A stretch of DNA of 64,000 nucleotides from Raillietiella orientalis (Eukaryota), in NCBI GenBank assembly GCA_036172245.1, contig JAYWIR010000049.1, forward strand, positions 248,001-312,000, read 5' to 3'. The position numbers and the translations under genes are program-made. Positions 2,101 through 39,700 of this stretch are shown here, in pieces. The notes under the pieces were generated by a model. It was not told the DNA's origin, did no database searches, and saw only the letters and a list, made by a program, of their open reading frames with translations. Positions within the stretch are counted from its first letter, which is position 1. Each line of letters begins with the position of its first letter.

Positions 2101-4410
2101 CAGCATCGAGCCAACCTCGCAGGGTATGACCATAGTGACCTCGGAAAAAACGTGCTGCTAGGAAGAGCCCGCCCGATGAGTTCCTGCAGACTCCGCTTGT
2201 GCATCTTTCTACAGAAGTGGGGTCACGCCACAAACGGAAGGCTTTGCTGGGTTTCGTGAGCGGCTTGCCGCTGAAAAGGTTGTCGTGAAGGCGAACCCAG
2301 TTCTTATTACTGCCATTAATTATCAGGCTTATTACCAAATGGGACTTCAAACGAGATGGCGCGGGGCGCATCTGTGTCCGGAGTTCCATAATAGTCTCCA
2401 AGTACTGAACTCAGGATCACGTTTAGAAAAAAAGAACACGTAAACAGGTGCAGGGCTTGCGCCATCTCTTCAGCTCTTCATGTGATATCAGAGGGACTCC
2501 TTCCTATCCTTACGACACGCACCCCAGGAACACTGAACGTTCGAACACATCAGCCGTCGACAAGTAACAGCAGCGCCGGAGAAGGTCATAACTGCTCCAA
2601 TGGGCAACAGCAGCGCCAAAGAGCAAGAGTGCGCCGACGAGCAACAGAGGCGCCAAGGAAGGCAACTGCAGAGCCGACGAGCAGCAGCAGAGCCTAAGAT
2701 TAACAGCAGCGCCAGAGAGGACGACAGCGATTGGATGCACCACCTCCTGATTCCTGGCGATTTCCAGTCCCTCCACGCACCGCCTTTTCCCGGACCTCGA
2801 GCGGTCTACCGGCAGCTGTCCTTGCAAGAGAGAAGCGGAACGTAGAGTCAACAGCACGCCTTTCGCTTTGCCTCCTGCGATGCTGTCGATGGGTGCTCAC
2901 GGGCGCCAGCGACGTCTCCAGCACGGTCATCTCCCCTTCGCCTCGTAGCGTTGAATCTGCCCCTTAGGTGAACCGGCTGGCTTCTGGAAACTCCCCGTGC
3001 GTCATTCGCGACAGTCTCCTTGGCTTGGGCCGTCAGCTTTGAGGACGTACCCCTCCTCCTGCCCTCTGCTGCTGGGCGGCACCCGCTCTGGCGGAAAGTC
3101 GAGCCTTGCCTCTCCGGACAGCTCCATAACCTGCAAACCGGATGCGCTGTCCGATGAACAGATAATGCCCCGAGACGCTATGCTCCTCCAGAGTCTTCCA
3201 ATGACCCGGAGTTCTCTGGATAAGGGGATCTTCGTGCAGCCCTTATCCTCATTCGCTGGCAATCGATTCGCTCACCACCGGGCACAGCGCCCTCTTAGAC
3301 AGCAGATCCGCTCGTGGCAGCAAAGAACAGAGATGCTCCAGCGCTGTTTCTTCTCAAAGGAGGTGACTGAAGGTGAAAATTCGCTGCTGCCAAGATCACA
3401 CACAAATCTGTCCCTATGTTGGGGAAAAAAATTCTCAGCGTAACTGCATTTTTTGTTTGCTACAGAGATGCAGCATCTTCTTCCCTCGTGAATTTAGAAG
3501 TATCCGTTCTCCAGTCTGTCTGCGTCCCGGGTCAGTAAACGACCTCAGATGCGCGATCACTGCACGTGGCAACGTGGCAACATGGAAGGACGAAACACTC
3601 AAAGAGCTATGTGTGGACGCCACTTGCTCTCCGGATGAAGTGATATTTTGGGACCCATTTTGCCCCCATTCAGAGTCACCTGCAAATCCAAATTAAATTT
3701 TTTTTTCCCCTAATTCAGCAGTGACCACTGATGGTGGAGTTCGACCTTTCGAACTTCGAGGTGCACCGAGATTCGTCACAAGCTTCACTACTGAGTCTTC
3801 AAATCCATAGATGGCCGTGTGTGGTTGCAACGAAAGGCAGGTTCCGGCAGGCACGTACTGTGAACCAGGGTCGCGCGTTGGCGGCCGCGTGGCTGCAGTG
3901 TCTGCTCATGAACTGTCTCGGGGGGTTGCCTTTCCAGAGGAGTAAAAACAAGGAACAGTTCCCTTGCAGGTACCCTGCGGAGAAGAAATTCCAGGAGCTC
4001 TCCGACTTTCCTCAAAAACATCTGGATTCTCGGAGCCTCGCTAGGTTCCGATCAAGGAATCCACCTTGAATGCCGTCTTGCCTCCAGTGGATTCGATGCA
4101 AGGAGAGAAAATTCCGATGTTTTTAGCAGGATTCCAGGATTAGAAGAGAATTCGTTGGGACGCATTTCCATCCTCCACCAGTGTGTTCGCATGCGTCAGA
4201 TCAGTTAGTCGATCACGGACACTAGAAAGGATTGCGCTAACCTCAGAGGTGGCTCACGGTGAGGATCCACACAGGTCATATTTGCATCAGCTTTGTGATT
4301 CCACCTTGTCTTTAAAAGGCAAAAAAAAAAAATAGGTTTTTTTTTTAATTTCGATTAGTTTGGCATTTTCTCTTTTCGACACTAAAAACCCATAAAAACG
4401 AGTCGTCTTG

Positions 4411-5232: not shown

Positions 5233-5529
5233 TTTGCAGGTCAGCCCCAATCGCGTAGATTTCCCAGTCGTAGGCGCGAGCCTGTTCTTTTAGAATCGAT
5301 CGAGAGATGCCGCCACCTTATCCAAAAGCGTGTTCTCCTGCCCAACAACGCTGAAGGCTTTTCCTACCTCATAGTAGGAAACAACTAATGAAGGCATGGA
5401 CAACTCGGCAGCTAGTGGACGCTGCGACCCTGAGTGTCGCGTCTAAAGGACTTCTGCGCTGGGGCGAGCTGCTCGAAATACCTCCGGAGGAGGTGAAGTG
5501 GCTCCCAGCATGCTGGGACAGTGGCGCCC

Positions 5530-5960
5530 TTCCCATGAAATAGAAAGAGACGGCGTTGCTATTCTTGCATTGGGGAATCCTATGCAGAGTATGCCTCTCG
5601 CACTGGACAGTAGGGAGCGTGGCTGCTCGTTGTGCAGAATGCAGTGAAAGGGAAACCTTCCTGCATCTCCTTATAGACTGCGTCGCCCTCTGTGAACTTC
5701 GAGATCGGCTCTCTTCGATTCTGAATCTTTCGGCAGGCGACCCTAAAGATATTTTCCGGCGCCTCTACAGGCGTGATGCCCTGCCCCCCGCCGCATCTCT
5801 AGCAGTTTTCTGCTGTGATCGAGGAATCGTGGCAAGGTGAAAAGCCAAAAGAAGAAGACAAAACAGCAGGGACGCCATGCATTGGACAATGACCTTCTTG
5901 AAGACCGTGCCAAAATGACCCCACAGGAATAATTTAAGAGCAGCACTTGTCAGCATCCTG
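5530..5960 (+). mobile_element. L1/Tx1-like LINE ORF2 C-terminal zinc finger (zf-RVT) fragment
   Basis: ORF 5556-5840 encodes CAECSERETFLHLLIDC, matching the C-x2-C...ET-x2-H-x4-C motif of non-LTR ORF2. Confidence 0.8.
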
Positions 5961-13119: not shown

Positions 13120-13900
13120 GACGAACCCTAAAACAACAAGAAATACCAAAAAAAAAAAGCTCATTCGGGTTAACCACCGGCACTCAAGTCGGCTTCCTGG
13201 ACGTAGGAAACGGAGGGAGGAGACAATAATCAAATAAAAATAGACGGGAGGGTGGAGACGGGGATCTTTGGTTGAAGACATTCCTTTCCTTCTAGAAGCG
13301 GTTCTGAACGGTGGCAATCTCCCTGGCGACTTTTTCTGGAAGATGAGGCCACCTTGCTGCTGTCCTCACGAGGGCTGCTGCCATGCTGGTGGCCTCTCTC
13401 TGCCGCGGACCTGACTTTAACACGTGGCGGATGTCACTATCACTCTGATTGCAACAGACTGTTGCACGCCCAGCGCTTCTTCAGCCCTCCTCCGGTGGAG
13501 AAGAGTCGCAGCAAGTCCTAATCCAAAAGTCCTGCGATTTCCAGAGTACCGAAACGAGCAGTCCAACGGAAGGTGTCCAACATCTTCAACAGTTCGGGGA
13601 GGCAACTCCTCAGTGCGAAACCAGGTGCCTTCTTTAATTGCACTGCAATCTCCAGCTCAGAAACAGCAGAACATCCTGTTTCCATCGGATCGGGAACACG
13701 GAGATGGCCATACACAGGGAAGAGACAACGAGTTCTTCGGGGAGCATACCCAGCAGTTCGCTTGAGTGGAGCATGGACGCAAACCTGCTCTTTGCGAACA
13801 CCTGGTTTGAATTCCAGCGGAGAAGAGAGAACGAAAGGAACACGGTCAGAACCCCATTTCTGAGACGTCCACCGGTGATGGTCGGGAAGGAGAGGGTGCC
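13120..13900 (-). mobile_element. LINE 3' end (zf-RVT region and 3' UTR)
   Basis: SPNC*RC..DC relic. 13285-13440 is repeated at 18340-18490, and 13440-13760 at ~19430-19780. Confidence 0.6.
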
Positions 13901-13914
13901 CTTGAGTTCGCAGT

Positions 13915-14125
13915 CGACTTGCAGGAAGCAGTCGACTTCGTAGACCAGGAACTTCTTCTGGAACTCCCGGAACACCTGGTCTCTTTGAAGGAGTTCCTGC
14001 GCTCTTGCTGGCGCGACGCGCTAAACATTTATTTCAGTGGACGTAACGTGTACGATGTGCAGGTGAGTCTCAAGATACTGCAGGGCGACAACCTGAGTCC
14101 CTTGTTCTTCAGCACCTACTTCGGT
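13915..14125 (+). mobile_element. LINE reverse transcriptase core fragment
   Basis: EAVDFVDQELL (KAFDxVDH-like) and ILQGDNLSPLFF (QGDxLSP motif at 14081-14101). Confidence 0.8.
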
Positions 14126-14797
14126 GCTAAGGGAGCACAGGGAGACTACAGCTCGCTTTGCCTAAACCTGGACATGCCACACGCTTGCCCAGGCACATTG
14201 GCTGTCAGCATGTGTACGATCTTCTACTGCTGCTCCACATGTCCACCCCGGTGTCGGCGCTCGAAGATTTTCTCGAGCTGTCAAGCCTCGGGACAGGCCG
14301 CTCGCCGAGGTCGTCGGGCACGCGCTTAGGCGGTCCCGGATGAGGATCCGGGCACTCCAAGGACTCTGGACGCCGTCATGGCATTCGTCTCCCTTGGCAA
14401 CCGAGGAGGGAGAAGGCAGTCGGGAAACGCGCCTGCTTGGTCGGGGGCTCACGGTCACTCGCATGTAACGCACGCATAGCACGGCCCCCACCTCGCAAGC
14501 CGTTCGTCGCGCACTGAGCCGGCAAGCCTCCGCGGCCTCCATGGAGATGCCTGGAAGCGATGAGGGAGAGGGAGAGGGAGGGGGAAGGAAGCACGTCGCT
14601 GCGTGCCGAAGACCACCAACAACAACTCTCGTCTCTTTTTTTTTTTCTTTTTCTGAGGGCTAAATTTTTGTTTTTTTTTGTTTTTTTGTTGGCCGCCGCC
14701 TCCTTTCCTTCTTTTCGGCGACACAGTCGCTCCTAGCGCACCGTCGTCGTTGGAGACGGGAGGGAGAGAAAGGGTGGGATGGAGTGGAAGGCACTTA

Positions 14798-15430
14798 TCA
14801 GGAGGCGACGCGGCGGCAATGGTGGATGTGGTGACACTGGTGGCTGCCGCTGAGCTAGTCCTGCACGGCCCTGTACAGCTTCTCGCTGCTGCGGATGTCC
14901 TCCTGCAGCTCCCTGGCGCCGACCATCAGCACTTTCCTGCGGCGCAGGAAGCGCTCGTGGGCGCGCAGGTCCTCGGCCAGGACACCGAGCCCCCGCAGCA
15001 CGCGGCGCAGCTCCCCGCCACGCTCGTCCGCGCTCTGCTTCAGCCTCATGGTCTCGCGCAGCTACTCGTTCAAGTTCTCGCGCCTGGTCTCAAGCGGTTT
15101 CTTGGCGACGGACGATCCCTCGTCGAGGATGGCGTTCTCGGTCCGTGTCAGCTGCGCGAAGAGCAACAGCAGCAGCGATAGCACCGTGGCCAGCTCGCAT
15201 GCCAACCGGGCGTAGCGATCGCACTCGACAGAGAGCGTCCGCGCACGCAGACGCTCCATGAGGTTCGCTCCCAGGCGGTCGTTCCCCTCAGTGCTGTGCT
15301 GGAGAGCCGCCGCATCGGAGCGCAGGATGTCCAGCTTGCAGCCGAGACACGTCAGGAATTCCATTTTCTTCGGCACCAGCGAGTGCTCGTCGGGAGTATC
15401 ACAGAGAGGAGCTTCGCACCCGTTGCTGGC
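14798..15430 (-). pseudogene. Shroom: Shroom ASD2/SD2 (Rho-kinase-binding) domain core, intronless, with two in-frame TAG stops
   Basis: LVPKKMEFLTCLGCKLDILRS..NDRLG..ECDRY..ELATVLSLLLLLFAQLTRTENAI..LETRRENLNE*LRETMRLKQSADER..HERFLRRRKVLMVGARELQEDIRSSEKLY follows the ASD2 pattern as I recall it (KKxEL..KL.VL..N..LG..DLEKVV.LLL.L..RLARVENAL..REL.DKI..EEQL). TAG stops at 15062-15064 and 14855-14857; TGA at 14798-14800. Confidence 0.85.
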
Positions 15431-15479
15431 CGGGGACGACGGGAGACGTCCAGGAGGAACTGCCGGCGCAGAACCGCAG

Positions 15480-15720
15480 CACTTCGGGCTCCAGCAGTCG
15501 TTCGCGGGCCAGAAGAATTCGTTTAGGCCCAAGTTCCTGGAAGATGCGGAGGCGTTTCCCGCCAAGCTCAGCTGGCAGAAGCAGCAGGAGGAGATCGAGT
15601 GCGAAGAGCTCGGCAGGAGCATCGCCTGCGACCTGGACAGGAGCGACCGGCTCTACTCGCTGCTGGTGCCTCGGAGCGGCAGCTTGCGGCCGTTCCGAGG
15701 TGAACAGGTGCGAACAGGCC
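15480..15720 (+). pseudogene. Shroom: Inverted upstream part of the Shroom ASD2 region
   Basis: Plus-strand LSWQKQQEEIECEELGRSIACDLDRSDRLYSLLVP (15567-15671) resembles the EEIECExLSRDL..L..LL.P motif that precedes the SD2 core in arthropod Shroom. Confidence 0.7.
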
Positions 15721-15759
15721 GAAAATGGTCCGTAGTAGGAGTCGGTTCGGCGTGAGCAA

Positions 15760-16760
15760 GGTGGCTGAAATTGATCCCCACGGTTCGCTACTTTAAGTAC
15801 CTCGGGGTATCGTTATAGGACTATTCTGAGGCGGACGAGTGATCCAGCCGCCTTCAGAAGGCAGAATTGGAGACCGGCCCGTTCTGTAATGGCAAGTTTC
15901 TCTTGCTGGAACGGGCCGCGGTGTAGAGCACGTTTGCGACCCCCCCCTTATGCCCCCTGATATTTGTTTGTCCCCTACCTAGTAGCATTAAAAAGCGGAC
16001 GAAAGACCTCATGAGAATTGCCCTGTGGGGCACAGGGAGGCCCGGAGTCCACGTGAAGGACTTGTGGTCTCCTAATCGCGACGGATGCCTCCGTCTCCTG
16101 ACGCTAAGGCGCCTGGAAAGGCAGATCCCGTGGAAGACGTTTGCCATAGTGGCGGAGATTTGCAGCATGGAGTGATGCGAGCCCGCGCGAAAGCCGGTCA
16201 AGCGTGACACCGGCTTCGCGAGACTGTCTTCGTTCTGCAAAGGCGGCTCTAGCTCAAGGTGTCCAGCTGCGGACTGGAGTTCCAGCAAGTGGCCAAGATG
16301 ACGAGGACAACATAGCAATTCTCTGACGTGGCGTCAGCACACCTCAAGGCACGTCTGTCGCGAAGTGACAGGGTTTGACTCAGAGTGAGCAAGTGAAAAG
16401 TCAAGGAAGGCTGGACCGCCGCCCCAGTCGTATAGACCGGGCTGAGAATGGAGAGAGATCCCGGGCTGAGCCAGGTCGAGAAGCTTGCTTAGCGCCCGCT
16501 AGCAAGTTTTCGCGTTTTCCATAGCAAGAAATCCGTTTTTCGTGGGGACCTGTTTTGACTGCTGGGAAGCTCTGCGTTCTCTCGCAAGGGAGATGCACAT
16601 TGTGGAGAGCCCCCCCGTGTCGGGTCTGAGGTGGAAGAGAGGAGGAGAAGAAGAGGGTGAAACTGCCCACTACTCCTGCCGGACTGCGGATACTTCACTT
16701 GGGGATGAGAAGTGAGCTGTTCGTCATCACTACAGGCATCTCCAGAACGCCCATTGGAAT
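15760..16760 (+). mobile_element. LINE ORF2 distal part (RT end to zf-RVT), decayed
   Basis: FKYLGV at 15792-15809, KDLWSPNRDG.LRL (GGLG-like), and a zf-RVT-like relic near 16620-16690. 16055-16300 is paralogous to 19787-20030. Confidence 0.7.
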
Positions 16761-19429
16761 TCCGCAAACCTCAGTCGGGCGAACAGTTGCTTTGGGAGGG
16801 ATATTTGGTGTTCCTTCGTCAGTAAGATGAGGCGCAGTGATTCTCCGAGTCTCCTCAGACTCCAGTTTGCAGAAACTCTCGTTACCTTTCCTGTAGGATG
16901 GCGCCATCGCAAGCGGCGGAGCGCACTGCGGCTTTAAGGGTGGCGTTGGCGCGTTCCCACTTCTCCGTCGCAGCTCTTGAAAGGGCTCTGTCCCAAGTCG
17001 TCCGCTGGGATGGAGCTGCTCTGGGTTGGTCCAAGAGACCCACGCACACACACCTGCAGCCTACTACCAGAGAATACCAGAGAACACTGTCCGCGACAGT
17101 CTGAGAAAGAGGACCGGAACTTGCAATTTATCCAGCATCAGCACTCCGAGTCCGGCATCGCGATGCAGAGTCAGCAGGTCTTTTAGACTCACCCGGGACC
17201 TCGTCCTTGCCCACGGGACTTTTCGGAGAAGTCGTTCTTTTCGGCTTCGTAAGGAGGGGGAAAGAGGTTAGCTGAACTCCAAGGCAGCCGTTTGCGAAAA
17301 ATTCCACCTACGGCAATCTCTCCAGCGCATCTCCCTCCAGCGTTGGCGGCGGACCCCGCGGCGCTGCGTGGCTGATGATGTCAGGTGTGACCCAAGCAGC
17401 TATCAGTTACAACCCTTATGCAAGTAGCGTTCTAATAAACCACGAAGAGCTCCTCAGGATCTCAGGAAAAATACACAACCCTTTCTAAAATGCTCTTGTG
17501 AATAAATACAGCAGGAGGTGATCTATCTCTCTATATACAAATATGCATATGTATGTCCATACAAATATGCACGTTGACGTCATGCCACAAATCTGCATTT
17601 CGTTATAGAAATTACAATTATAAACTGTCCCCAGATAATTATAGAAAATTCAGATTTATAGAAAGCAAAGCATTTAAAACCGGCTTCCTCGAGAGCGAAT
17701 CGGCGGCGTGACGTCAACACACGGCATCAACATAGCTTAAAAGCAGCCAGCCCTCGAACTTCACCATGCGACGAAAGGTAGGGCGCACTATATGAGAGAC
17801 CACTTCAGTATCTACTTGAGTTCTTCTACGAGACGGAGTGCTTGCTGTGTTTGAGGGGCACAGTTTTTGCTGAGGAGCTCTCTGGGAACCCGCAAGGTCC
17901 GGGATCCGCCTTGAAGACTCCGCGGCGGGATGTCGGCTTGGACATCTTGATCCTGGAGAGGATCGGGCTACAAGTGCTGTTCTGAATGCTGATACTCTAA
18001 GACAAGCTGTGGACTTTCCCGATCTGTGTGTCTGCATGTGTCATCCTGCAGAGATGCTCCAGCAGCGAAGCACTGGTCTCGCTGTTTCTGGGCACCCGCA
18101 ACAGAATGCGGGGTATCGACTTCCCACACAGGCAACTCGCTTCTCTAGTGGTAGTCTAAACGTGGATCTCCTACAGCCCAATGAACTACAATGCTTGGCG
18201 GCAGGAGGCTGTTGAACCCTGGGAATGCGTTCTGAAGATCTTCACCCCCTGCGGCATCAGTTACCACGCCCACTAGAGATAGTGATGCAGGACATGGTAA
18301 AGTTTTGGACCCTACCGCCACAGTTCTTGCCGCTTCCCTTTCCTTCTAGAAGTGGCTCTGGACGGTGGCGATGTTCTGGAGACTTCTGGCAGATGAGGCC
18401 ACCTTACTGCTACCCTCATGAGGGCTGCTGTCATACTGGTGGCCTTTCTTCGCTTCCAACCTGACTCCAAGACACGGGGCTGTCACTATGGAGCTGGTTT
18501 CACACCTGGATGTGCCGGAGCATTTGTTCCTCTTGCAGGAATCGATGGGGCCGAAAGGTCCACCGATTTGAATTATTACATTAGGAAAAAGTAGGGGAGC
18601 CGGAGGGGTCGATCACGTGCAACAAGAAGAAAAGGAATGAAACAAAATTAGAACAAAAAGAAAACGAACTATAACAAACAATAAAGATCAACAAAACAAC
18701 AAGCAAAAACTAATTGGGGGAAAGGGGGATCGCATTTTGTGATGGGTGAAGCCTCTGCATCCGTTGAAGGAGGCCGGCGAGCTCTTGCTTCTGCCTTCCG
18801 AGGTGGGGCCACCTCAGAGCTATCTGCAGGTAGCGGATGGCATGCAGGACAGCCCCCCGTCGCTTCGGCTTCCCTCGGCGTTGCACTTGCCACGACGATA
18901 CCGCGCACTCAGCACAGCGCTGCGATTGAGGTTGCGGACGTCATGGCCTCCCGCACGAAGAGGGGTCTCAAAGAGTCTCTGGAATCGTCCACGGGGTGAG
19001 GAAGGGACGCGGACGTTCCCACAAGACCCGAAGGTGGTAAAATGTCTCCATCTCTCCACACCTGGCGCAGTTCGACGATGCGCTTCCCTTGGACTAGTTG
19101 TGCCGGCGCGCATTGCAAGAGATACCCCAGTGCTGTATCGGCAGCGCCGATTGCTGACATTTGAGGAGAAGCAGCTTTCTTTTTTATAAACACGGAAGTT
19201 ACTTTCAACTCTTCAGGCTGAATGGAGATGAGTTCGTCCAAGCGCTCTAGTCCTTTGGAGACGGTTCTCTCTTTTGCCGCATTAGTCAGCTGACGAGGAT
19301 TCCAGCCACCGATAAACTTTTCGCGGGTGGAGATCTCGCAGGAAACCTTCGTCGGTAGGCAGGTGCCATGTATCCTGACAGCAAAAGGACTCCGCTGCAG
19401 TGAAGGAGGTAGCTGGTGGTTAGGCCAAC

Positions 19430-20480: not shown

Positions 20481-22899
20481 TAGTCACTTCTGCTGTTGCA
20501 CTGGGGTATTTCGTGGAACTCCCGCCGGTCTCACTGGACCTGGAGGGCTGTGGACCCTAGCTGTTGAAGGTACGGATAACAGGAATCCCTCCCACACTTG
20601 CTTGTAAACTGTGTTTTTTTCTGGCCCCTGTGGTTGCATTACGCAACGACCTTTGGTGCATCGACGGACAATCCCAGGGACGTTTTGATGCGCCTCTTCG
20701 TGCGCGGTGCCTTTCCCTTGCCGCATCCTCAGCAGCAAAAGTCCTGCGCTTCCAGTGCCTCACCGGAGAATGTGGTGAGCCGAAACACATCAATAAAAGG
20801 ACCACAGTTTCCCACACAGAAGGAGAAAGCGTAACTGCATCTGCATTCCGACCTTCTCAATGGTCAGAATGTCTAAGCCAGGGTCCTGGAGAGACCTACC
20901 CCGTCATTCAGTCTAATCCGGGATCTTGGAGCGTCTCACAAGGTTTTCGTAGGACGCGCTGCGCCCAGATCTTTACTGAATGAGGTGGCAAACAAACAAA
21001 AAGTAAGGGACGGAGGAAAAGGCAGGAACCAAAGTGTTCGATGTGGAGGTGAGCTCTGGCAGGACGAACTTACCATCGAGGAATGGGTAAAGGGCCATCT
21101 ATGCCTTTTGAGGGCATTTCATTTCGGGAGCGCTGGACGTCTTCCATCCTACGTCCCTTGCAATCTTGCAGGCCACTTTCCTTGCAGGCTATGCAAATCT
21201 TCCGTCTTGCCACATCTTTCATTGTCAGCACGGTAGATGCAACGTCCGCGAGGGCGTTTAGCCGATGGTCTACCCCAGGTGCAGCCATTTCTTTTTCCGG
21301 AGAGTGTAGCTGCCCTCGTAGAGGAATCACGAGGGATGCTTGGAGCTTGCTCCTCCACTGCCGCGGGTAGACCCGGTATTGCAGTACCTCATCCCTCTTG
21401 TGTGTTCCTGAGGCAGCAGTTTCAGTTTCTGCCTTTTCCACCGTTCCAGTCCCGCACGTGGCTCGCACGTGGCCCCAGACGATCGCGGCGAAGCATCGAA
21501 ACTTTTTGGAATGTCTTCCTTCCTTTACGGAAAATCCTGCCAGGCTTTCTCATCCAGCGCTATTCCTAAGCGGCCATGATTTGCCTAGCGGGAATCTGAT
21601 CTTTTTGTCTAGTGTCGAGAAGGTGAAGGGCCGCGTTCGTGTTTCCACTCCACCACAAGCGGCGCAGGAATCACTGCGAGCCCGTTCATCATGCCACTGA
21701 TCATATGCACGGTGGTCGACTGGAGGCTGACCCGTCCGGCTTCGGCTTTAGAGGGACGTCAGCGAGCACGGGCAGCATGGCAGCCAACGAGATCTAAAAA
21801 TACAGCGCGATCGACTGGAAACAGGCCCGCCTTGCATATCCTGTGAAACGTAAAGTGGCATTCCCTCAGGGGGTCAAATGGCACTTCTTCTAGAGGTCAG
21901 CCATTATTAACTCGGGAGGTAAACTGGCATTGTCTTGGGAAGTCGAATGCCGTTTCCCTTGGGTTGTAAACTGGAATTTCTTTAGTAGATCAAGTATTGC
22001 TTTCACGCGAGGTCAAGTGGCCCACACTCTCAGTCTTCCCAAGTGGATGCGCGAGCGATCCTGCGATCCCTTCCCGGAAGGGGGCAGCTGGGGAAAAAAA
22101 ATTGCGGGAAGAGCTCCACCGCGTGCTGCCCTCTTGGGGGGAGGAGGGATGTCGAATTGCCTGCAGAGAAGCTGCGCCTCTTGTTCCCTACTGATCCTGT
22201 TTCCAGGGTTGGACGCGGTCGCGAGAGACCCCTACATGCTTTCCCACGCAAAAAGGATGTCCGAAAGAGTTGAAATCGCCGCAGGCCTTCCGCCACTCGC
22301 AGGAGACCGCGCGCGTGCCTGAGGCGCATGTGGATCGGGGAGGCGCTGCGTGTTTCCTGGTTCGCTGACCCAACTCAGAACTTCTTCGAGTGGTCGGCTG
22401 CCATTAACTCGGAAGGTGGGCTGTCTTTGTCTTGGGAAGTTCCCTGAATAGAAGATATGTGCTACAGCTTCACCCCGGCCGCCGCCAGGACGTCAAGACC
22501 CTACGTCACAGCTCGGGGCAGCCATGCCAGATCCCACAGAGGCTTTCCTGGGTCTTGTTTTGCGGAATGGAAGGAGATGCGAAGGCGCGGATGGCGAGCG
22601 AAGAGCAGAACAGGAGAGTTGGAGATGGAACGTGCAGCAGGAAACACTCGTGGTTTGCAGTGCCCCTGCCGTCCGGGGAGGTTCTCTGACCATCGATTCT
22701 GCCGAGAGGGAGACACCAACCGCGCGCGAGGACCGCATCTGCTGAGGACTCAGAGCGGAGAGAGTTGCCAGGCAACGTGCGGGAAGCTCCCACCCTATCT
22801 CCGAAGCGCGGCTAACGGCAGGACGGTTTCTCAGGGCATCTCCCCCTCCTCCTCATGAAGGGCTTCCAGACAGCGAAGAAATAGTCGGTCGCGGAGGCT

Positions 22900-33452: not shown

Positions 33453-33749
33453 CTGATGACCGGCTGCCCCGCCGGCTGGGCTGCTGCCTGCTTTGCAGGC
33501 TCATTTTAGGCCTCTCCATGGTCAGGACGGTGTCGTAGATGAGGATGAAGATGTTCTTTTTGAAGTGAGTCTTCTTGATCAAGAAGCTGGGACACCTGTT
33601 TGACTGCTGGAGCAGCAGCTCGTTCAGCGTGCGGTCATGTATCTCCAGGATGTAGTTGTGCGTCTTCTCTCTGTATTCCGCGCACCGTATGGCAATGCTC
33701 CCGGCGGCCAAGCGCTGGTAGGAGCAGTTCTCCATTTTCCCGGACACCT
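33453..33749 (-). CDS. Sidestep-like exon 10 (divergent FN3 domain)
   Basis: Acceptor ttttccccag after a 68-nt intron. Encodes EVSGKMENCSY..IRC..YILEIHD..PSF..ILIY. The donor CAG|GTGCGG at 33452 is tentative. Confidence 0.7.
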
Positions 33750-36700
33750 CTGGGGAAAAAGAAAACACCAGTAGCTCGCGGGGAGAATTGCCCCCCCCCC
33801 CCTCAGAGGATACTGACCGACGGGGATCAACCGGTAGACGCAGGGCGACAGCTGCTTTCCGATTTCGTTGGCGGCCCAGCAGTACATCTTCCCGGTCGTT
33901 TCCGGGGGAGACAGAGAAATCGACGGATCAGAGAGTGTCGCCGAGTCCGCCGACAGGGACGCCGAGCTGTTCTCGTACTGCCAGAAGTAGCTGGTGGGTG
34001 CCGGGTGCGAGGAGACGTTGCACTCGACGTGGAGCTTCCTGTTGGCGAAGGCGAGGACCGTGGTTTGGTGAGGGTGGGCGCAGATCGGGCGGTCTGGAAC
34101 GAGAAAAGGCGGGTGACGCCTTGTCGCGCACCCAGACAGAACATCAACACCGACAGATGACTCGGGGTTGCGGAGTTCTTCCTGTTTTTGGACCTCTGCC
34201 ATTACTGAGAACACTGCTTCGATACCCGGACTTCGATCATCTTTCGCGGTCCCCATAATCGAAGTGGTGACGGCGGTCGCCCGGACCCTTGCCAACGAAG
34301 GCGCGACGGAAACTGAATCCCAAGATCTGCATGATGCTGCGTGAACGGAGCTCCGGAAAAGCAAGCGCCTCCTCCCAGCACCTAACTTTAAAGTCAGATG
34401 GCCCGCATCCCATTTCCTCTTCTTGATGTGCATCTCTCCGGTTTCCAATTCATCGCTCCTCTTTTGTCACCAAGAGAAGCTGGAGGGAACAAGAAAAGAA
34501 AGCCAGGATTCTGCTCAAAGAGTCCCCGAAGATCAATTTGGAAAGAGCGGCGAAGACGCAGAATCAGGTCCGGACTTTCCACTACTGCGGACCTATTTCA
34601 AGGTACTGTGTCTCCCCAAGTCCCTTCTGCAGATCCCAATCTCCTGGCTCAGCCTCGCTTCCCTCCAAAACGCAGACTCAGTAACACAGACGCGGTCACG
34701 AAAAGCTTCGGAACCACCAGCAACACGCATCTTTGACTCGTCGTGGCTGCTGAATCCAGCAGACAGTCAGGTGTCTTTCTGATCACGAACTGAACCCGCT
34801 GTTTTTCAACTTGCCTTTCGCGATGTATCAGCTGGGATGCAGACACCAGTACTCTGCGTTGTGCCGAGAGGCCACTTTTCTCGCAGCTGCTGCCACGATA
34901 GCAAACAACGTGGGTTCAATTTGCTTCTCCCCTCACAGAATCGTCCTGCTCGACGTACTTTTGGCGCGCCGGCGTCGTTCCTTCGCTCGAGAGGGAACGT
35001 GCAACAGACGCAATAGAGGCGAGCTGGTCGCGTGGGGGAAGCAGCAGCGCAACTTTCCTCTCCTTCCTTTCCCCCCCTTGAGGCCCGGTCGCAGGTGCCG
35101 TGACGGCAGCCTCCGCTACAGCTGCGAAAAGATGACAATAGGCGGCGTTCCCGCTCATTCCTTCCCCTCCCACTTCGATGAGAGGCTCTCAGGGAGGGAC
35201 CGGCTGTTGTGAAGGGGCGTCCGGCATGCTCGCACGTTCTGCGAACGGCTCCTGGGGCGAGGAAAGAAGGAAGGAAGGAAGGATGCAGCAGCTCGCGACC
35301 CGCGGGAGAGGGTTGGAGTAGGCACGCGGCGGCAGCGCCTTCCTTCTCCTTCGGAAACCGCCACCTGAAGCCCAGTTAGCTCCGGGTCATGGGGTGCCCT
35401 AAGAAGGCGGCAAGCAGAGCGGTCCGCCGGTCCCGTTTCGCGAGAAAGGGTCTTCGGGGAAAAGGGAAGCAGGGCATTCCACAAGGGAAGGAGGAGGAGT
35501 AGGAGGAGTAGGAACAGAGGCAACAGAGAAGGAAAAAAGTCGTAAAGGAGGAAGAGATGCAAAAGAACGGAAGAGGAAGAGAAAGAGACGAAGAAGGTCA
35601 AGGCACAGGAGAGAGAGTGGAGGGAGTAGAAGGGACAGGAGGAGGGGAGAAACCGGAGAGAAGGATGGGAGTCGGGAGGAGGAGGAGAAGAACGAGATGC
35701 AAAAAATGGGAAGAGGGACAGGAGAAGGAGGAGCAGGTCCAGGAAAAATAGTTGGAACTCTTTGGTGCGGCACAACGTGTTGAGTCTGCACTACGGGGTG
35801 CCTCCGTGACGCGTGCGGGGGCTGCAGGAACTGAGCTCAAACAGCAATGCGCGATGTAACTTCATTGAGGGGGAATGGCCGTTGAAATAGAACCTTCTGC
35901 CCTTCCACTCTCTCCAGTTTTGCGAGCGTTTGGTTCCTCAACGTCTTTCACGATTTCGAAAGGGCCCTTTGGTGGTGGCGGTTAGGAGATCGTCCGACCT
36001 GGACGCCTCCACCGAGACTACGAGATAATCACACTGGCAACAACTGAGCGTCGCGGAAACGGGTCAAAGACCGCGCAGCTGGAAGAAAGCCTCCCGTTGG
36101 GCTTTCCCCACAATGGTTCATTCGAAAAACGAAACATCGAAGAAGAGAGCAGCAGGCAGAGACGCCGTCTACAGACAGAGAATGATTCAAGGCTGGGGCT
36201 GGATCGCGGCGGGATACTGAGACAGATGAACTCAGCACCGGAGGATACGAATCCGTCCTGGGATAGCGTGCCGCTCCCGTGCTCTTCTTCAGATGCAAGT
36301 TCGCCCTCTGGTATGTTGCAGCCTTCGTATCCATGATGCCGATTTGCTCCTCTTACGCCTTCTCGCGCCTGGAGGATGACCATGACGTACCAGTGGCGTG
36401 CACTTCTAGTGGATGCACCCACTTTGCCAGGGAATGCTCTACGAACCCACGGGGACGCATTCAGAAGTGAACTTCTCATCTTGCATGTAGCTTCTTCCCT
36501 TCATCATTTCATCTTTTCTGATTCCTCTTCCAGAATTTCCTTTAATTTTTCCGATTTTCACGTGCTCTCCGTGAGTGCTTCTCAGCCCTATTCGTTCTTT
36601 GTATGCGTCAGCGGCGGTGCGGATTTCAGGCGGGTAGCAAAAGCATCCGTTGATGGACTTTTCTGACGGTTCCGATCTCAGTTGGGCATCTTCGTCAGAA

Positions 36701-39700
36701 GCAGCGGAGAGTTTCCCTGGCAAGAGAATGAGAGAATGGTCGAGGTTTCCCACTCATTCAGAGATATCTCCAGCTCTCTAGGGCCTGTTCTCCAAACAAG
36801 CGGGAGGGAAGAAGGAACCAATCTTGATCCATCCCCAAGCTGACTTCACCTATCCTACCTATGCTACTCTTTATATGCTACCTTGCCTGATTAACCTTTA
36901 ACCTAAACTAAGAAGATAGTTTTTAGAAGATAGACGACTTTCCCTTGGAGTTCAAACGTCACTCAGGGAAAGCCATGGAAACTTTCCGTAACCGCTCTCC
37001 AGCTAAGATCGGGCAGCTACGGGAGAATCGTCTCCAAAGGAAACCTCAGCCTTCTCGTTGTGGAAGATCGCTGCAGATAGACTCGAATCTTCCTAAGTCT
37101 TGCACAAGACTGCTGGCTTCGCAGGGACGATTCACACCCCTTCCTATGCACGGTGCACCTCTTGACCCCATCCGAGAAGTCATGTCGAGGCGCTGCAGAG
37201 AAGACATACGAAAGTGACAGGAAGCCTGAAACCCACCAGGGAGCTTCCCGTTCAGACCATCCCAGAGAGAGGAGTCGGGCAGGACTCCGGAAGAGCGCTA
37301 AGGAAGGGAGCACCATAAGAAAGGCAGGGAGTGGTCTGCATGTCAGGCGGATCCCAGCGAAGTGCACTCGAGATGTCGATGGGCCAATTGACGTAAAGCC
37401 AGGATAGGCGTTTTGCACATGTTCTGCGTCACTGGCAGGTTAGCTAGGGCCGGACTAATTACGATATTTGATTAGGTCAGGTCAGCTGATTTTGTCTCAG
37501 TAGGGTGGATTAGGCAGAAAAGGTAGACTCGTTTAGGTACACTGGGTTGATCAGGTAGGTTATATTAGGGTAGAACAGGTCAGGTTGGGATAGGTCAAGA
37601 TTTGGTTAAATGGAGTAGGGTTCCAGGGATGAGTTAAGTTCGGTAAGGCAGGATTGGTGGGGTTAGATAGATAAGGCTATCGAGGTAGAGTAGTGTAGGT
37701 AGCATGGCTTAGATTAGACTAGGAGAAGAGTAGGAAACGGATGGACCGGGCTGGAAATTAACTGTGGGCAGAGTGGGTTGCGGATGGACTGTCGTGAGCT
37801 TACAAGTTTAATGAAGAAATTTTTGTGTGCATTCAGCAAGGGTAGATGAGGTTGAATGAATAGGGTTGGTTAGGTTAGGTGAGGTCTAGGCAAGGGTAGA
37901 TTAGGTTGAGTGGTAGGAGTTATAAGTGTACAAGGTTGGCATAAGAGTGGGTTGAGTGGCGTTGGTTATAAGTGGACAAAGTTGGTCTAAGAGTGAATTG
38001 TGAGTGGACAGACTTGGGGTAAGAGTGGGAGAGTTGACTATATCAAGAGAGAGCTAGTTTTGAGAAGAATTTTTTGGATGGCTTTCATCAGGTAAGATGG
38101 GGGTTGGATAGATAGAGTTCCTTAGGTTACGTAGGATATGATGGGTTAGATTCGGTTAGGGTTGTCTTAGGTTAGGAATAGAAGAGGTTTAGTCAAAGGA
38201 GAGGTTGGTTAGGTGGATCAAGAGGAGACGCGTGAGGCGGACAGGTAGATGACATTGCCTGAGTTGGGATAGATCGAATCAGATGAGGAGGTATTGAATT
38301 GTTGGGGTTGGCTAGGTGGGGAGGGCATCCAGTATGGGCAGCTGGATCTTCTGAGTAGCTGGGAGGATGATGTCGTGTTGCGAGGGCGAACTATGTCAGG
38401 CTGATTGCATGGACCGTGGACCAAGGACGGTAGCCGAGAATCGCATCTTGACGCAGCGAACGCGTGTGCAATCTGCGCACCGGTCTGAGCGTGTCGCGGA
38501 GTGAGCAGGCGCGGCGCTCCTTTGCGGACGCACTTCCTGGAAGGGTCGTCCGCGCCGCCCACCAGCGACCCGCTCCCGATTGCTCCCTGCAAAGAGGTAA
38601 GAAGGAGAATTAGGATGACGACGGAGAGCGCCAAGAGAAAGAGGAGGGTGATTTTCTTTCCGATAGTGACTTTCCTATGTAGAGGGGATGACGCGCGGCT
38701 CCATCGGATGCAGCTCCTGCGCCATCCACAGCGCTCGTGGCCGGCGCGCTGAGCGCGCGCACCGTAGGGCAAACGGAAGGGGAGAGGTGCTGGAGTTTGA
38801 TTGTGAGTTCCCGGGGGAGTGTCCGAAAGACAAGCTGCCCTCGAGGGTCCAGAATCCCACGGGAGTGAGCGGAGCGCTCGATGTGGGTGGAGACGGCAGC
38901 GTCCCGGAAACACTGGTGGTGATGCCTGGTGTGAACACCCGGAAGGAGTGCGGGCATAGGCGGGAAGAGGGTTCTGCCCTCATCTTCCTGTCGAGCATTA
39001 GCTTTTGCGTATGTGGTGCATTTTTGGCCAGGACTTTGCCTGGTACCCTCTGCCTCCGTCCTTCCTCTTCCAAAGCCCCCTGCTGTGGATGTCTAGGGGA
39101 GCTCGACTGGGAAAATTCTCCAGGAAGAGAAGACCGTGGTGCTCATCCCAAGGTACTTCTCTGAGGGTGTTCGGGGAGCCGTGCATCGAGGAGGGAGAAG
39201 AACGGGAGCGGAGGAGAGTGTCTAAGCGACGGAACTGCTGCTGGAGGGCGGGAAGACCTACACTTGACGTCCAGAGCGACGGCGCTACTCTCGGCCTCTC
39301 CTTCTCCGTTACGGACGTAGCAGGAGTACCTCCCGGAGTAATTCTTGCTGACCTTCTGCAGGACCAGGGACTGGTTCGAGATGATCAATCCCTCCTTGTG
39401 GCTGTTGCGTATGGGGACTCCCTGAAAAGACAAAGAGCGTATGATCTCCTGGCAGCAAAAGAGACGGCAAACAACAAGAGCCTCAACGGGAGTTGGGGAG
39501 GATAGGAGGAACAGCTTCCTCCTACCGGGGTGACCCTTGTCCATACCACTTTTCCTCCTTATGATGACCTCATGTATTCCCGCGCTACCATGAGGTCTCC
39601 AGGAAACGAGGGTCCCGGAGAGTCTTGTCCAGTCTACCGAGAAAAGCCGGCCATCTCCAGAAGGAAACTCAAGGCTCAACTGAGAGTCCTCCTACATTCA

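What the first reader, a model, noticed from the sequence alone, without database searches (positions are those of the whole stretch)
14636..15720. Shroom ASD2 retrocopy with an inverted 5' part, embedded between two halves of a LINE RT
Seen: an intronless ASD2 core on the minus strand with two TAG stops, followed by ~100 bp and then A-rich runs (14636-14690). The motif that precedes the core in Shroom is on the plus strand at 15567-15671. QGDNLSP (14081) and FKYLG (15792) flank it on one strand. Known: ASD2/SD2 binds Rho-kinase, and twin priming gives exactly this layout of an inverted 5' segment plus a sense 3' segment and poly(A). Inference: a LINE-mobilised processed pseudogene with a 5' inversion, or a retrocopy flipped later. 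Either strand of any read-through transcript would be partly antisense to Shroom mRNA.
Basis: partly seen in the sequence, partly recalled or inferred. Interest (0 to 1): 0.7.

Follow-up and report, generated by a model that had tools for sequence, protein, structure and literature searches.

The report
Tail-to-head permuted Shroom retrocopy
A dead DNA copy of a spliced Shroom messenger RNA sits inside an old jumping gene with its pieces out of order, the RNA's poly(A) tail joined directly to its apparent front end, which looks like the trace of a reverse transcriptase jumping from one end of an mRNA to the other; the copy is real but a one-off with no sign of function.

Summary
Window 14298-15696 is a 1.4-kb copy of the spliced mRNA of an intact Shroom gene elsewhere in the genome; four parent introns are cleanly missing. 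It splits a decayed endonuclease+RT LINE whose halves rejoin with 4 nt lost, 2- and 4-nt microhomologies and no target-site duplication. The inverted piece (15525-15680) abuts the sense 3' piece as twin priming predicts. But the poly(A) is not the end: after it come one extra G and 337 nt from the apparent 5' end of the same mRNA (14298-14634, spliced). The order is thus circularly permuted, and about 1.2 kb of the middle is absent. Best reading: an RT primed inside the mRNA at a break, ran to the 5' end and jumped to a Shroom poly(A) end, while the other break end primed the inversion. That exon 1 begins at the cap site is inferred, not shown. The copy decays neutrally (two premature stops). 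The 3' piece is about twice as diverged as the others, unexplained. Seventeen other Shroom-like fragments lie in this genome. The scan noted other retrocopy chimeras here, but not this layout.

The parts
13770..14297 (+). Left half of a decayed APE+RT LINE (RT up to the degenerate YADD region), the insertion target
   Evidence: tblastn of intact relative L047 (Pfam RVT_1 and Exo_endo_phos) aa 510-690; about 70-74% DNA identity to at least 40 other places; weaker DNA match reaches 13575
14296..14297 (.). GG microhomology shared by LINE and mRNA at the left junction
14298..14634 (-). Piece D: mRNA nt 1-337 (whole of exon 1 spliced to the first bases of exon 2; junction 14313|14312; 810-nt intron absent)
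   Evidence: 96% to G000:C27:238382-238703 + 239514-
14635..14635 (-). One untemplated G between tail and mRNA start (possible copy of the cap; weak)
   Evidence: parent has C at this position
14636..14652 (-). Untemplated A5-G-A11 run: poly(A) remnant, internal to the insert
   Evidence: parent continues with other sequence after 243418; no match with up to 1 mismatch in 46 kb of the parent locus
14653..15516 (-). Piece C: mRNA nt 1732-2592, ASD2 core plus 3' UTR; introns absent at 15365|15364 (93 nt) and 15101|15100 (55 nt); premature TAGs at 15064-15062 and 14857-14855
   Evidence: 60 substitutions in 860 columns
15517..15524 (.). 8-nt filler at the inversion junction (4 of the bases may be parent sequence)
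15525..15680 (+). Piece B: inverted mRNA nt 1545-1700; intron absent at 15666|15667 (64 nt)
   Evidence: 97% to C27:242159-242300 + 242365-
15681..15700 (-). Piece A: about 20 nt, mRNA nt ~1691-1710, same orientation as C; overlaps B by about 12 nt; ends in the GAGG microhomology (15697-15700)
   Evidence: 21 of 22 identical, E 2e-4
15697..16312 (+). Right half of the same LINE RT (EVNR...FKYLG...)
   Evidence: tblastn aa 687-871 at 15696-16235; relatives continue across the site

Best explanation
A dead, one-off retrocopy made in a single reverse-transcription event at a chromosome break inside an already decayed LINE. Shown: RNA origin, the order of pieces, no target-site duplication, 4-nt target loss, microhomologies, neutral decay. 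Inferred: the left break end primed inside the Shroom mRNA through a short match (at nt 339, or at the look-alike site near nt 1701 followed by a slip to nt 339). The RT copied to the mRNA 5' end, perhaps adding a C opposite the cap. It then jumped end to end onto a Shroom poly(A) tail (same molecule or a second one) and copied the 3' part back to nt 1732. The right break end primed near nt 1700 and gave the inverted piece B, as in twin priming; a short local template switch gave piece A. End joining with an 8-nt filler closed the gap. It works like a twin-primed, endonuclease-independent retro-insertion with one added end-to-end jump. It encodes nothing functional.
For: Four precise intron losses spread over three pieces; three of the four parent introns are also spliced in RNA contigs of a related organism. 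Untemplated A-run at a plausible cleavage site: AACAAA 14-19 nt upstream and a GT/T-rich tract 10 nt downstream in the parent (seen; the motif meanings are recalled); no other copy holds parent sequence beyond it. D starts at a C|A step; the AG there has the weakest pyrimidine tract of those scored (0.48 against 0.65-1.0 at seven real acceptors). Retro-fragments come from exon 1 onward (4 other places) and none from the upstream large exon, small exon or 900 nt before exon 1. 17 of 18 LINE relatives show the empty site with only a 3-4 nt spacer. B and C are neighbours in the mRNA. Both outer ends lie in look-alike motifs; the shared 8-mer occurs only twice in the mRNA and 40 of 20,000 random window pairs score as high (post hoc). 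Non-LTR RT template jumping to concatemers is shown in vitro for L1 ORF2p (PMC10830420, passages).
Against: C differs from the parent at 60 of 860 sites, B+D at 15 of 492 (p 0.002-0.003; 0.02-0.06 after merging clustered changes), which one event does not predict. The start of exon 1 is not shown to be a cap site: its AG is also in phase to act as an acceptor for the large upstream exon, and a lenient alignment of one old fragment runs upstream of it (inconclusive). The extra G is one base beside a tail that holds another G. The left microhomology is only 2 nt (about 0.18 by chance). Piece A has the wrong orientation for RT from the right end, so one DNA-templated step is needed. About 1.2 kb of mRNA is missing and not found as a young copy elsewhere. 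The anatomy cannot tell a jump on RNA from a pre-formed circle.
Confidence: 0.5

Rival explanations
1. A pre-formed head-to-tail circle (full-length cDNA closed by end joining, or an mRNA ligated 3' to 5') was opened or copied near nt 1700 and patched into the break; the arc nt 340-1690 was lost between the two look-alike motifs, and B is a flipped remnant of it.
For: Ignoring B, the top strand reads once around a circle: 339 to 1, tail, 2592 to 1732, 1710 to 1689, with an imperfect terminal repeat at 14296-14311 and 15688-15701. LINE-made circular products are described (PMC3510499, passages). RNA ligation before RT is named as an option for same-orientation chimeras (PMC11702581 section 7).
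Against: Needs an extra rare step and a further event for B; does not explain the higher divergence of C; an extra G fits a capped, open RNA better (weak).
Confidence: 0.22
2. Separate cDNA fragments of an abundant Shroom mRNA were stitched into a double-strand break by end joining; D's start next to the tail is an arbitrary fragment end.
For: No TSD, microdeletion, microhomology and filler match class 2 templated insertions (PMC5110952, passages) and RT-product-mediated repair, including several inserts at one break (PMC4516963, passages). 17 other Shroom-like fragments show that such pieces are common here.
Against: All four pieces come from one gene; D starts where the retro-fragment record starts; B, A and C cluster within 45 nt of one mRNA site.
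Confidence: 0.13
3. Two ages: piece C with its tail is an older Shroom retrocopy (here, or transcribed from elsewhere), and D and B were added later from the parent mRNA through homology.
For: C is about twice as diverged; copy-derived changes in C are neutral (pS 0.062, pN 0.054) and parent-derived changes are also more frequent there (11 of 860 against 2 of 492).
Against: Needs Shroom sequence added at two separate points of the same insert; no close source copy of C is in the assembly; significance is modest once clusters are merged and the test is post hoc.
Confidence: 0.12
4. Ordinary twin-primed retrocopy ending at its poly(A), with D an unrelated later insertion, or a DNA-level duplication or assembly artefact.
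For: B and C have the twin-priming layout.
Against: No TSD and no target sequence between tail and D; D comes from the same gene; introns are absent, which excludes DNA duplication; 3-7% neutral divergence with stops excludes a cDNA or assembly chimera.
Confidence: 0.03

Closest known systems
5'-inverted processed pseudogenes made by twin priming (Ostertag and Kazazian 2001, seen only as cited in PMC2912911 and PMC12350158)
   Same: Inverted upstream piece joined to a sense 3' piece with a short deletion at the inversion point; microhomology at the outer junction.
   Different: Poly(A) is internal, the mRNA's 5' part follows it, no TSD, no T-rich endonuclease site.
Non-canonical L1-mediated pseudogene insertions (PMC11702581 section 7: three-piece GREM insertion, same-orientation two-RNA insertions)
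   Same: Several pieces of one mRNA, twin-priming inversion plus template switch, junction microhomology or filler.
   Different: In the section read, none is described as a poly(A)-to-5'-end junction of the same mRNA; those are cultured human cells, this is a fixed germline copy.
circRNA-derived pseudogenes and the vault-RNA read-through pseudogene (Dong et al. 2016, PMC4897178, first part of text and supplement legend S1D)
   Same: Non-colinear order; the paper proposes RT reading across the close 5' and 3' ends of an open RNA.
   Different: The junction here is not a back-splice: it holds an 18-nt untemplated A-run and the parent has no GT at the 3' side; the template is a polyadenylated mRNA, not a small structured RNA.
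Class 2 templated sequence insertions / RT-product-mediated DSB repair (PMC5110952, PMC4516963)
   Same: Spliced mRNA sequence at a break, no TSD, microdeletion, microhomology, untemplated bases.
   Different: Those are described as lacking poly(A); here a tail is kept inside the insert.
Tailless retropseudogenes (Noll et al. 2015, PMC5322556, abstract and section 16)
   Same: The insert ends inside the RNA, as internal priming gives.
   Different: Those have TSDs and prime at A-rich sites; here no TSD and a GC-rich end.

Membership tests
Processed pseudogene | Precise loss of parent introns | tested here: met
   4 of 4 junctions covered by the insert lack the intron (810, 64, 93, 55 nt); the 93-nt junction carries two substitutions but the right length
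Processed pseudogene | Intact intron-bearing parent elsewhere; no parent flank copied | tested here: met
   Parent on C27 with an open frame through seven exons; no flank match
Processed pseudogene | Disabled and neutrally evolving | tested here: met
   Two premature TAG; copy-derived pN 0.054, pS 0.062 against parent-derived 0.009, 0.034
Processed pseudogene | Untemplated poly(A) | tested here: met
   14636-14652, but inside the insert
Canonical TPRT / twin-priming insertion | Inverted 5' piece adjoining sense 3' piece, small gap or overlap | tested here: met
   B ends at nt 1700, C starts at nt 1732
Canonical TPRT / twin-priming insertion | Poly(A) abuts the target at the 3' end | tested here: not met
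   337 nt of the same mRNA lie between tail and target
Canonical TPRT / twin-priming insertion | Target-site duplication | tested here: not met
   Longest shared flank word 5 nt and offset by 8 nt; empty sites show 4 nt lost
circRNA-derived pseudogene | Non-colinear order of exons | tested here: met
   Last exon precedes first exon
circRNA-derived pseudogene | Junction is a clean donor-to-acceptor back-splice | tested here: not met
   18 untemplated bases at the junction; parent reads GA, not GT, after 243418
Class 2 templated insertion / RMDR | No TSD, microdeletion, microhomology | tested here: met
Class 2 templated insertion / RMDR | No poly(A) tract | tested here: not met
   Internal tract present
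End-to-end template-jump product | Junction joins the true RNA 5' end to a true 3' end | tested here: inconclusive
   Indirect support for both ends; the one RNA run is contigs of a relative and shows no ends
Functional antisense pseudogene | Transcribed and yields antisense or small RNA | not tested
   Reads were laid on the parent locus; no run of this organism was listed

The most novel reading that the evidence does not exclude
Probability: 0.25. Interest if true: 0.65.

Novelty: new variant of a known kind. Interest (0 to 1): 0.42.

Why it matters
Each ingredient (trans-mobilised mRNA, twin priming, template jumping, break repair with cDNA) is known. The poly(A)-to-5'-end junction in a fixed mRNA retrocopy is the unusual part. 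If both ends are confirmed, it is in-vivo evidence that the end-to-end jump seen for non-LTR RTs in vitro acts on capped, tailed cellular mRNA. It also gives a second route, besides back-splicing, to non-colinear pseudogenes, which pipelines would split into two hits or call circRNA-derived. The copy itself is dead and single, so its biological weight is small.

Tried and rejected
Segmental duplication: rejected, introns absent and no parent flank. Back-splice origin: rejected at the junction. The A-run as copied genomic sequence: no match with 0-1 mismatches in 46 kb of the parent locus; seven 2-mismatch A-rich places are uninformative. The terminal imperfect repeat as a TSD: none of 17 matched LINE relatives has it, while both copies match the mRNA. 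A young copy of the missing middle: none found. Pfam on the plus-strand piece alone: no hit. A PDB search with the parent's matching peptide was not completed, so its Shroom identity rests on DNA continuity with the ASD2 exons. A host gene around the insert: of 104 selected window frames of 105 aa or more below 34 kb, none reached a curated Pfam cut-off except the ASD2 frame; short exons would be missed. RNA run X1 held 6% of the words and is a relative (its laid contigs are under 95% alike); it shows splicing, not ends or expression of the copy. Literature: eight searches listed no paper whose title or abstract start describes a poly(A)-to-5'-end mRNA retrocopy or a Shroom retrocopy; only open-licence papers are searched and most hits were not read. 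No control gene was tested for how many retro-fragments a typical gene has here. The scan's notes hold nothing like this sequence and nothing near it.

Full report
Observation. The minus strand at 14858-15535 encodes an ASD2 core (Pfam E=2e-24; Shroom SD2 structures). A search of the own genome placed the window at G000:C49 and found an intron-bearing parent on C27; the family search shows only C49, C27 and C39 above the cut-off, among 4 candidates. The parent reads open through seven exons with GT-AG introns of 810, 1373, 50, 64, 93 and 55 nt. RNA contigs of a related organism skip the 1373-, 64-, 93- and 55-nt introns. Both TAGs in the window are premature.

Anatomy. Numbering a spliced model of the parent mRNA from C27:238382 (2592 nt), the insert reads on the minus strand: A, nt ~1689-1710, sense; B, nt 1700 to 1545, inverted; an 8-nt filler; C, nt 1732-2592, sense; A5-G-A11; one G; D, nt 1-339, sense. 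Nt 340-1544 are absent, and no young copy of them was found elsewhere.

Target. The flanks are two halves of one decayed LINE with APE endonuclease and RT; its frame resumes across the insert at about aa 688-690. I call it L1/Tx1-like from recall only. In 17 of 18 distinct relatives examined the site is empty with a 3-4 nt spacer (ACTG in 12; one duplicate locus dropped, one did not match the pattern). The window lost that spacer and shares GG with the mRNA on the left and GAGG on the right. There is no TSD. The host LINE is about 70-75% identical to its relatives, the insert 93-97% to its parent, so the LINE was probably long dead when hit; it is the landing site, not shown to be the mobiliser.

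Are the joined ends the true mRNA ends? At the 3' side the parent has AACAAA shortly before and a GT/T-rich tract shortly after 243418 (motif meanings recalled), and no other copy holds sequence beyond it. At the 5' side D begins at a C|A step and has one extra G; full-length L1 and SVA copies with a cap-derived G are mentioned in PMC2912911 (passages). Four other fragments derive from exon 1, and all three copies that cross into exon 2 come from exon 1. None was found for 661 nt of the large upstream exon, the small exon, or 900 nt before exon 1. This fits a short isoform that starts at exon 1. Against it: the AG at 238382-3 is in phase as an acceptor for the large exon, though its pyrimidine tract is the weakest scored, and one old fragment may run a little upstream (lenient alignment). 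The point is open.

Mechanism. B and C are neighbours in the mRNA, as twin priming predicts. D and C share one orientation and meet tail to head. The simplest single event is internal priming from the left break end, copying to the 5' end, an end-to-end jump to a Shroom poly(A) end, and copying of C, with the right end priming B. L1 ORF2p makes such concatemers in vitro (PMC10830420, passages), and Dong et al. propose read-through across the ends of an open vault RNA (PMC4897178, part 1 of the text and supplement legends; the figure itself was not seen). Both outer ends of the insert fall in look-alike mRNA motifs (13 matches with a 2-nt gap; 40 of 20,000 random pairs score as high; noticed after the fact). 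That suggests a slip from about nt 1701 to nt 339, or a later deletion between the motifs, and keeps a pre-formed circle as a serious rival. Piece A needs one DNA-templated switch in any model.

Results against one event. C differs from the parent at 7.0% of sites, B and D together at 3.0% (p 0.002-0.003; 0.016 when changes within 2 nt are merged, 0.06 within 5 nt). Polarised with older copies and 37 listed differences of the relative, 44 of 60 changes in C arose in the copy, 11 in the parent and 5 are unresolved. Copy-derived changes are neutral (pS 0.062, pN 0.054); parent-derived ones are under selection (0.034, 0.009). I cannot say whether C is older or mutated faster.

Context. Seventeen other Shroom-like fragments were found (67-92% identity); 8 of 17 cross an exon junction, one only marginally, and the shortest hits may be chance. 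One is a 125-nt spliced mid-mRNA piece with a 12-nt flanking repeat and no tail. Unchecked notes of this scan report many other retrocopy chimeras in this genome. Scrappy mRNA copies thus seem common here, which lowers the surprise of the locus but would make a genome-wide count of tail-to-head junctions feasible.

Comparison and verdict. It is a processed pseudogene. It is not a canonical twin-priming insertion (no TSD, tail internal) and not a circRNA-derived pseudogene (junction is no back-splice). It resembles class 2 templated insertions (PMC5110952, passages; PMC4516963, passages) except for the kept tail, and the multi-piece insertions of PMC11702581 (section 7 and passages). Eight searches of open-licence papers listed no report of this junction type; most hits were seen as listings only, and supplements other than those of PMC4897178 were not read. 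Verdict: a new variant of a known kind, dead, single, with a moderately interesting mechanistic signature; interest 0.42.

Noticed in passing
L023:1465-1588 (G000:C17:2306541-2306664): 125-nt spliced fragment from the middle of the Shroom mRNA (90% identity), no poly(A), bracketed by a 12-nt direct repeat: a tailless-type mRNA retrocopy.
   Followed up: partly
L061:896-1620 (G000:C16, about 182.4-183.1 kb): A second, older Shroom copy with two pieces in opposite orientation (mRNA nt 1230-1342 plus, 2074-2384 minus), about 330 nt apart.
   Followed up: partly
L013 near 4330-4400 (G000:C16, about 1.330 Mb): Old Shroom retrocopy with a long A-tail starting about 50 nt after the stop codon region, a more proximal site than in the window copy.
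   Followed up: partly
L024 (G000:C52, about 990.6 kb): Old copy whose A-rich UTR stretch holds AATAAA twice, where the present parent has AACAAA; it ends there without a tail.
   Followed up: no
G000, 17 places besides the window: Shroom-like fragments of many ages, all from exon 1 onward; whether this number is high for this genome was not controlled.
   Followed up: partly
window:15702-15720: Short tandem duplication (about 10 nt) in the right LINE flank just outside the junction, absent from the aligned relatives.
   Followed up: no
window:33600-52500, minus strand: Exons of a multi-Ig-domain gene (weak Pfam Ig hits at 33627-34466 and 39146-39691, below cut-off); the wording recalls sidestep-family proteins (from memory). 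It seems to end well above the insert.
   Followed up: partly
window:19760-20736: 3' part of another copy of the same LINE family (52% aa identity to L047); weaker pieces at 17106-17285, 17884-18222 and 20739-21116.
   Followed up: no
window:13283-13453 and 18337-18502: Direct repeat of about 170 nt, 72-89% alike, 5.05 kb apart; probably two copies of a dispersed repeat.
   Followed up: no
window:24656-25102, minus strand: Weak NUDIX hit (E 0.0014, below cut-off) in a stretch that partly matches dispersed repeats.
   Followed up: no
L010:3418-3473 and 5383-5704 (G000:C27): The parent has two alternative exons ahead of exon 2, both ending in phase 2: a 56-nt exon and exon 1, pointing to long and short Shroom isoforms.
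   Followed up: partly
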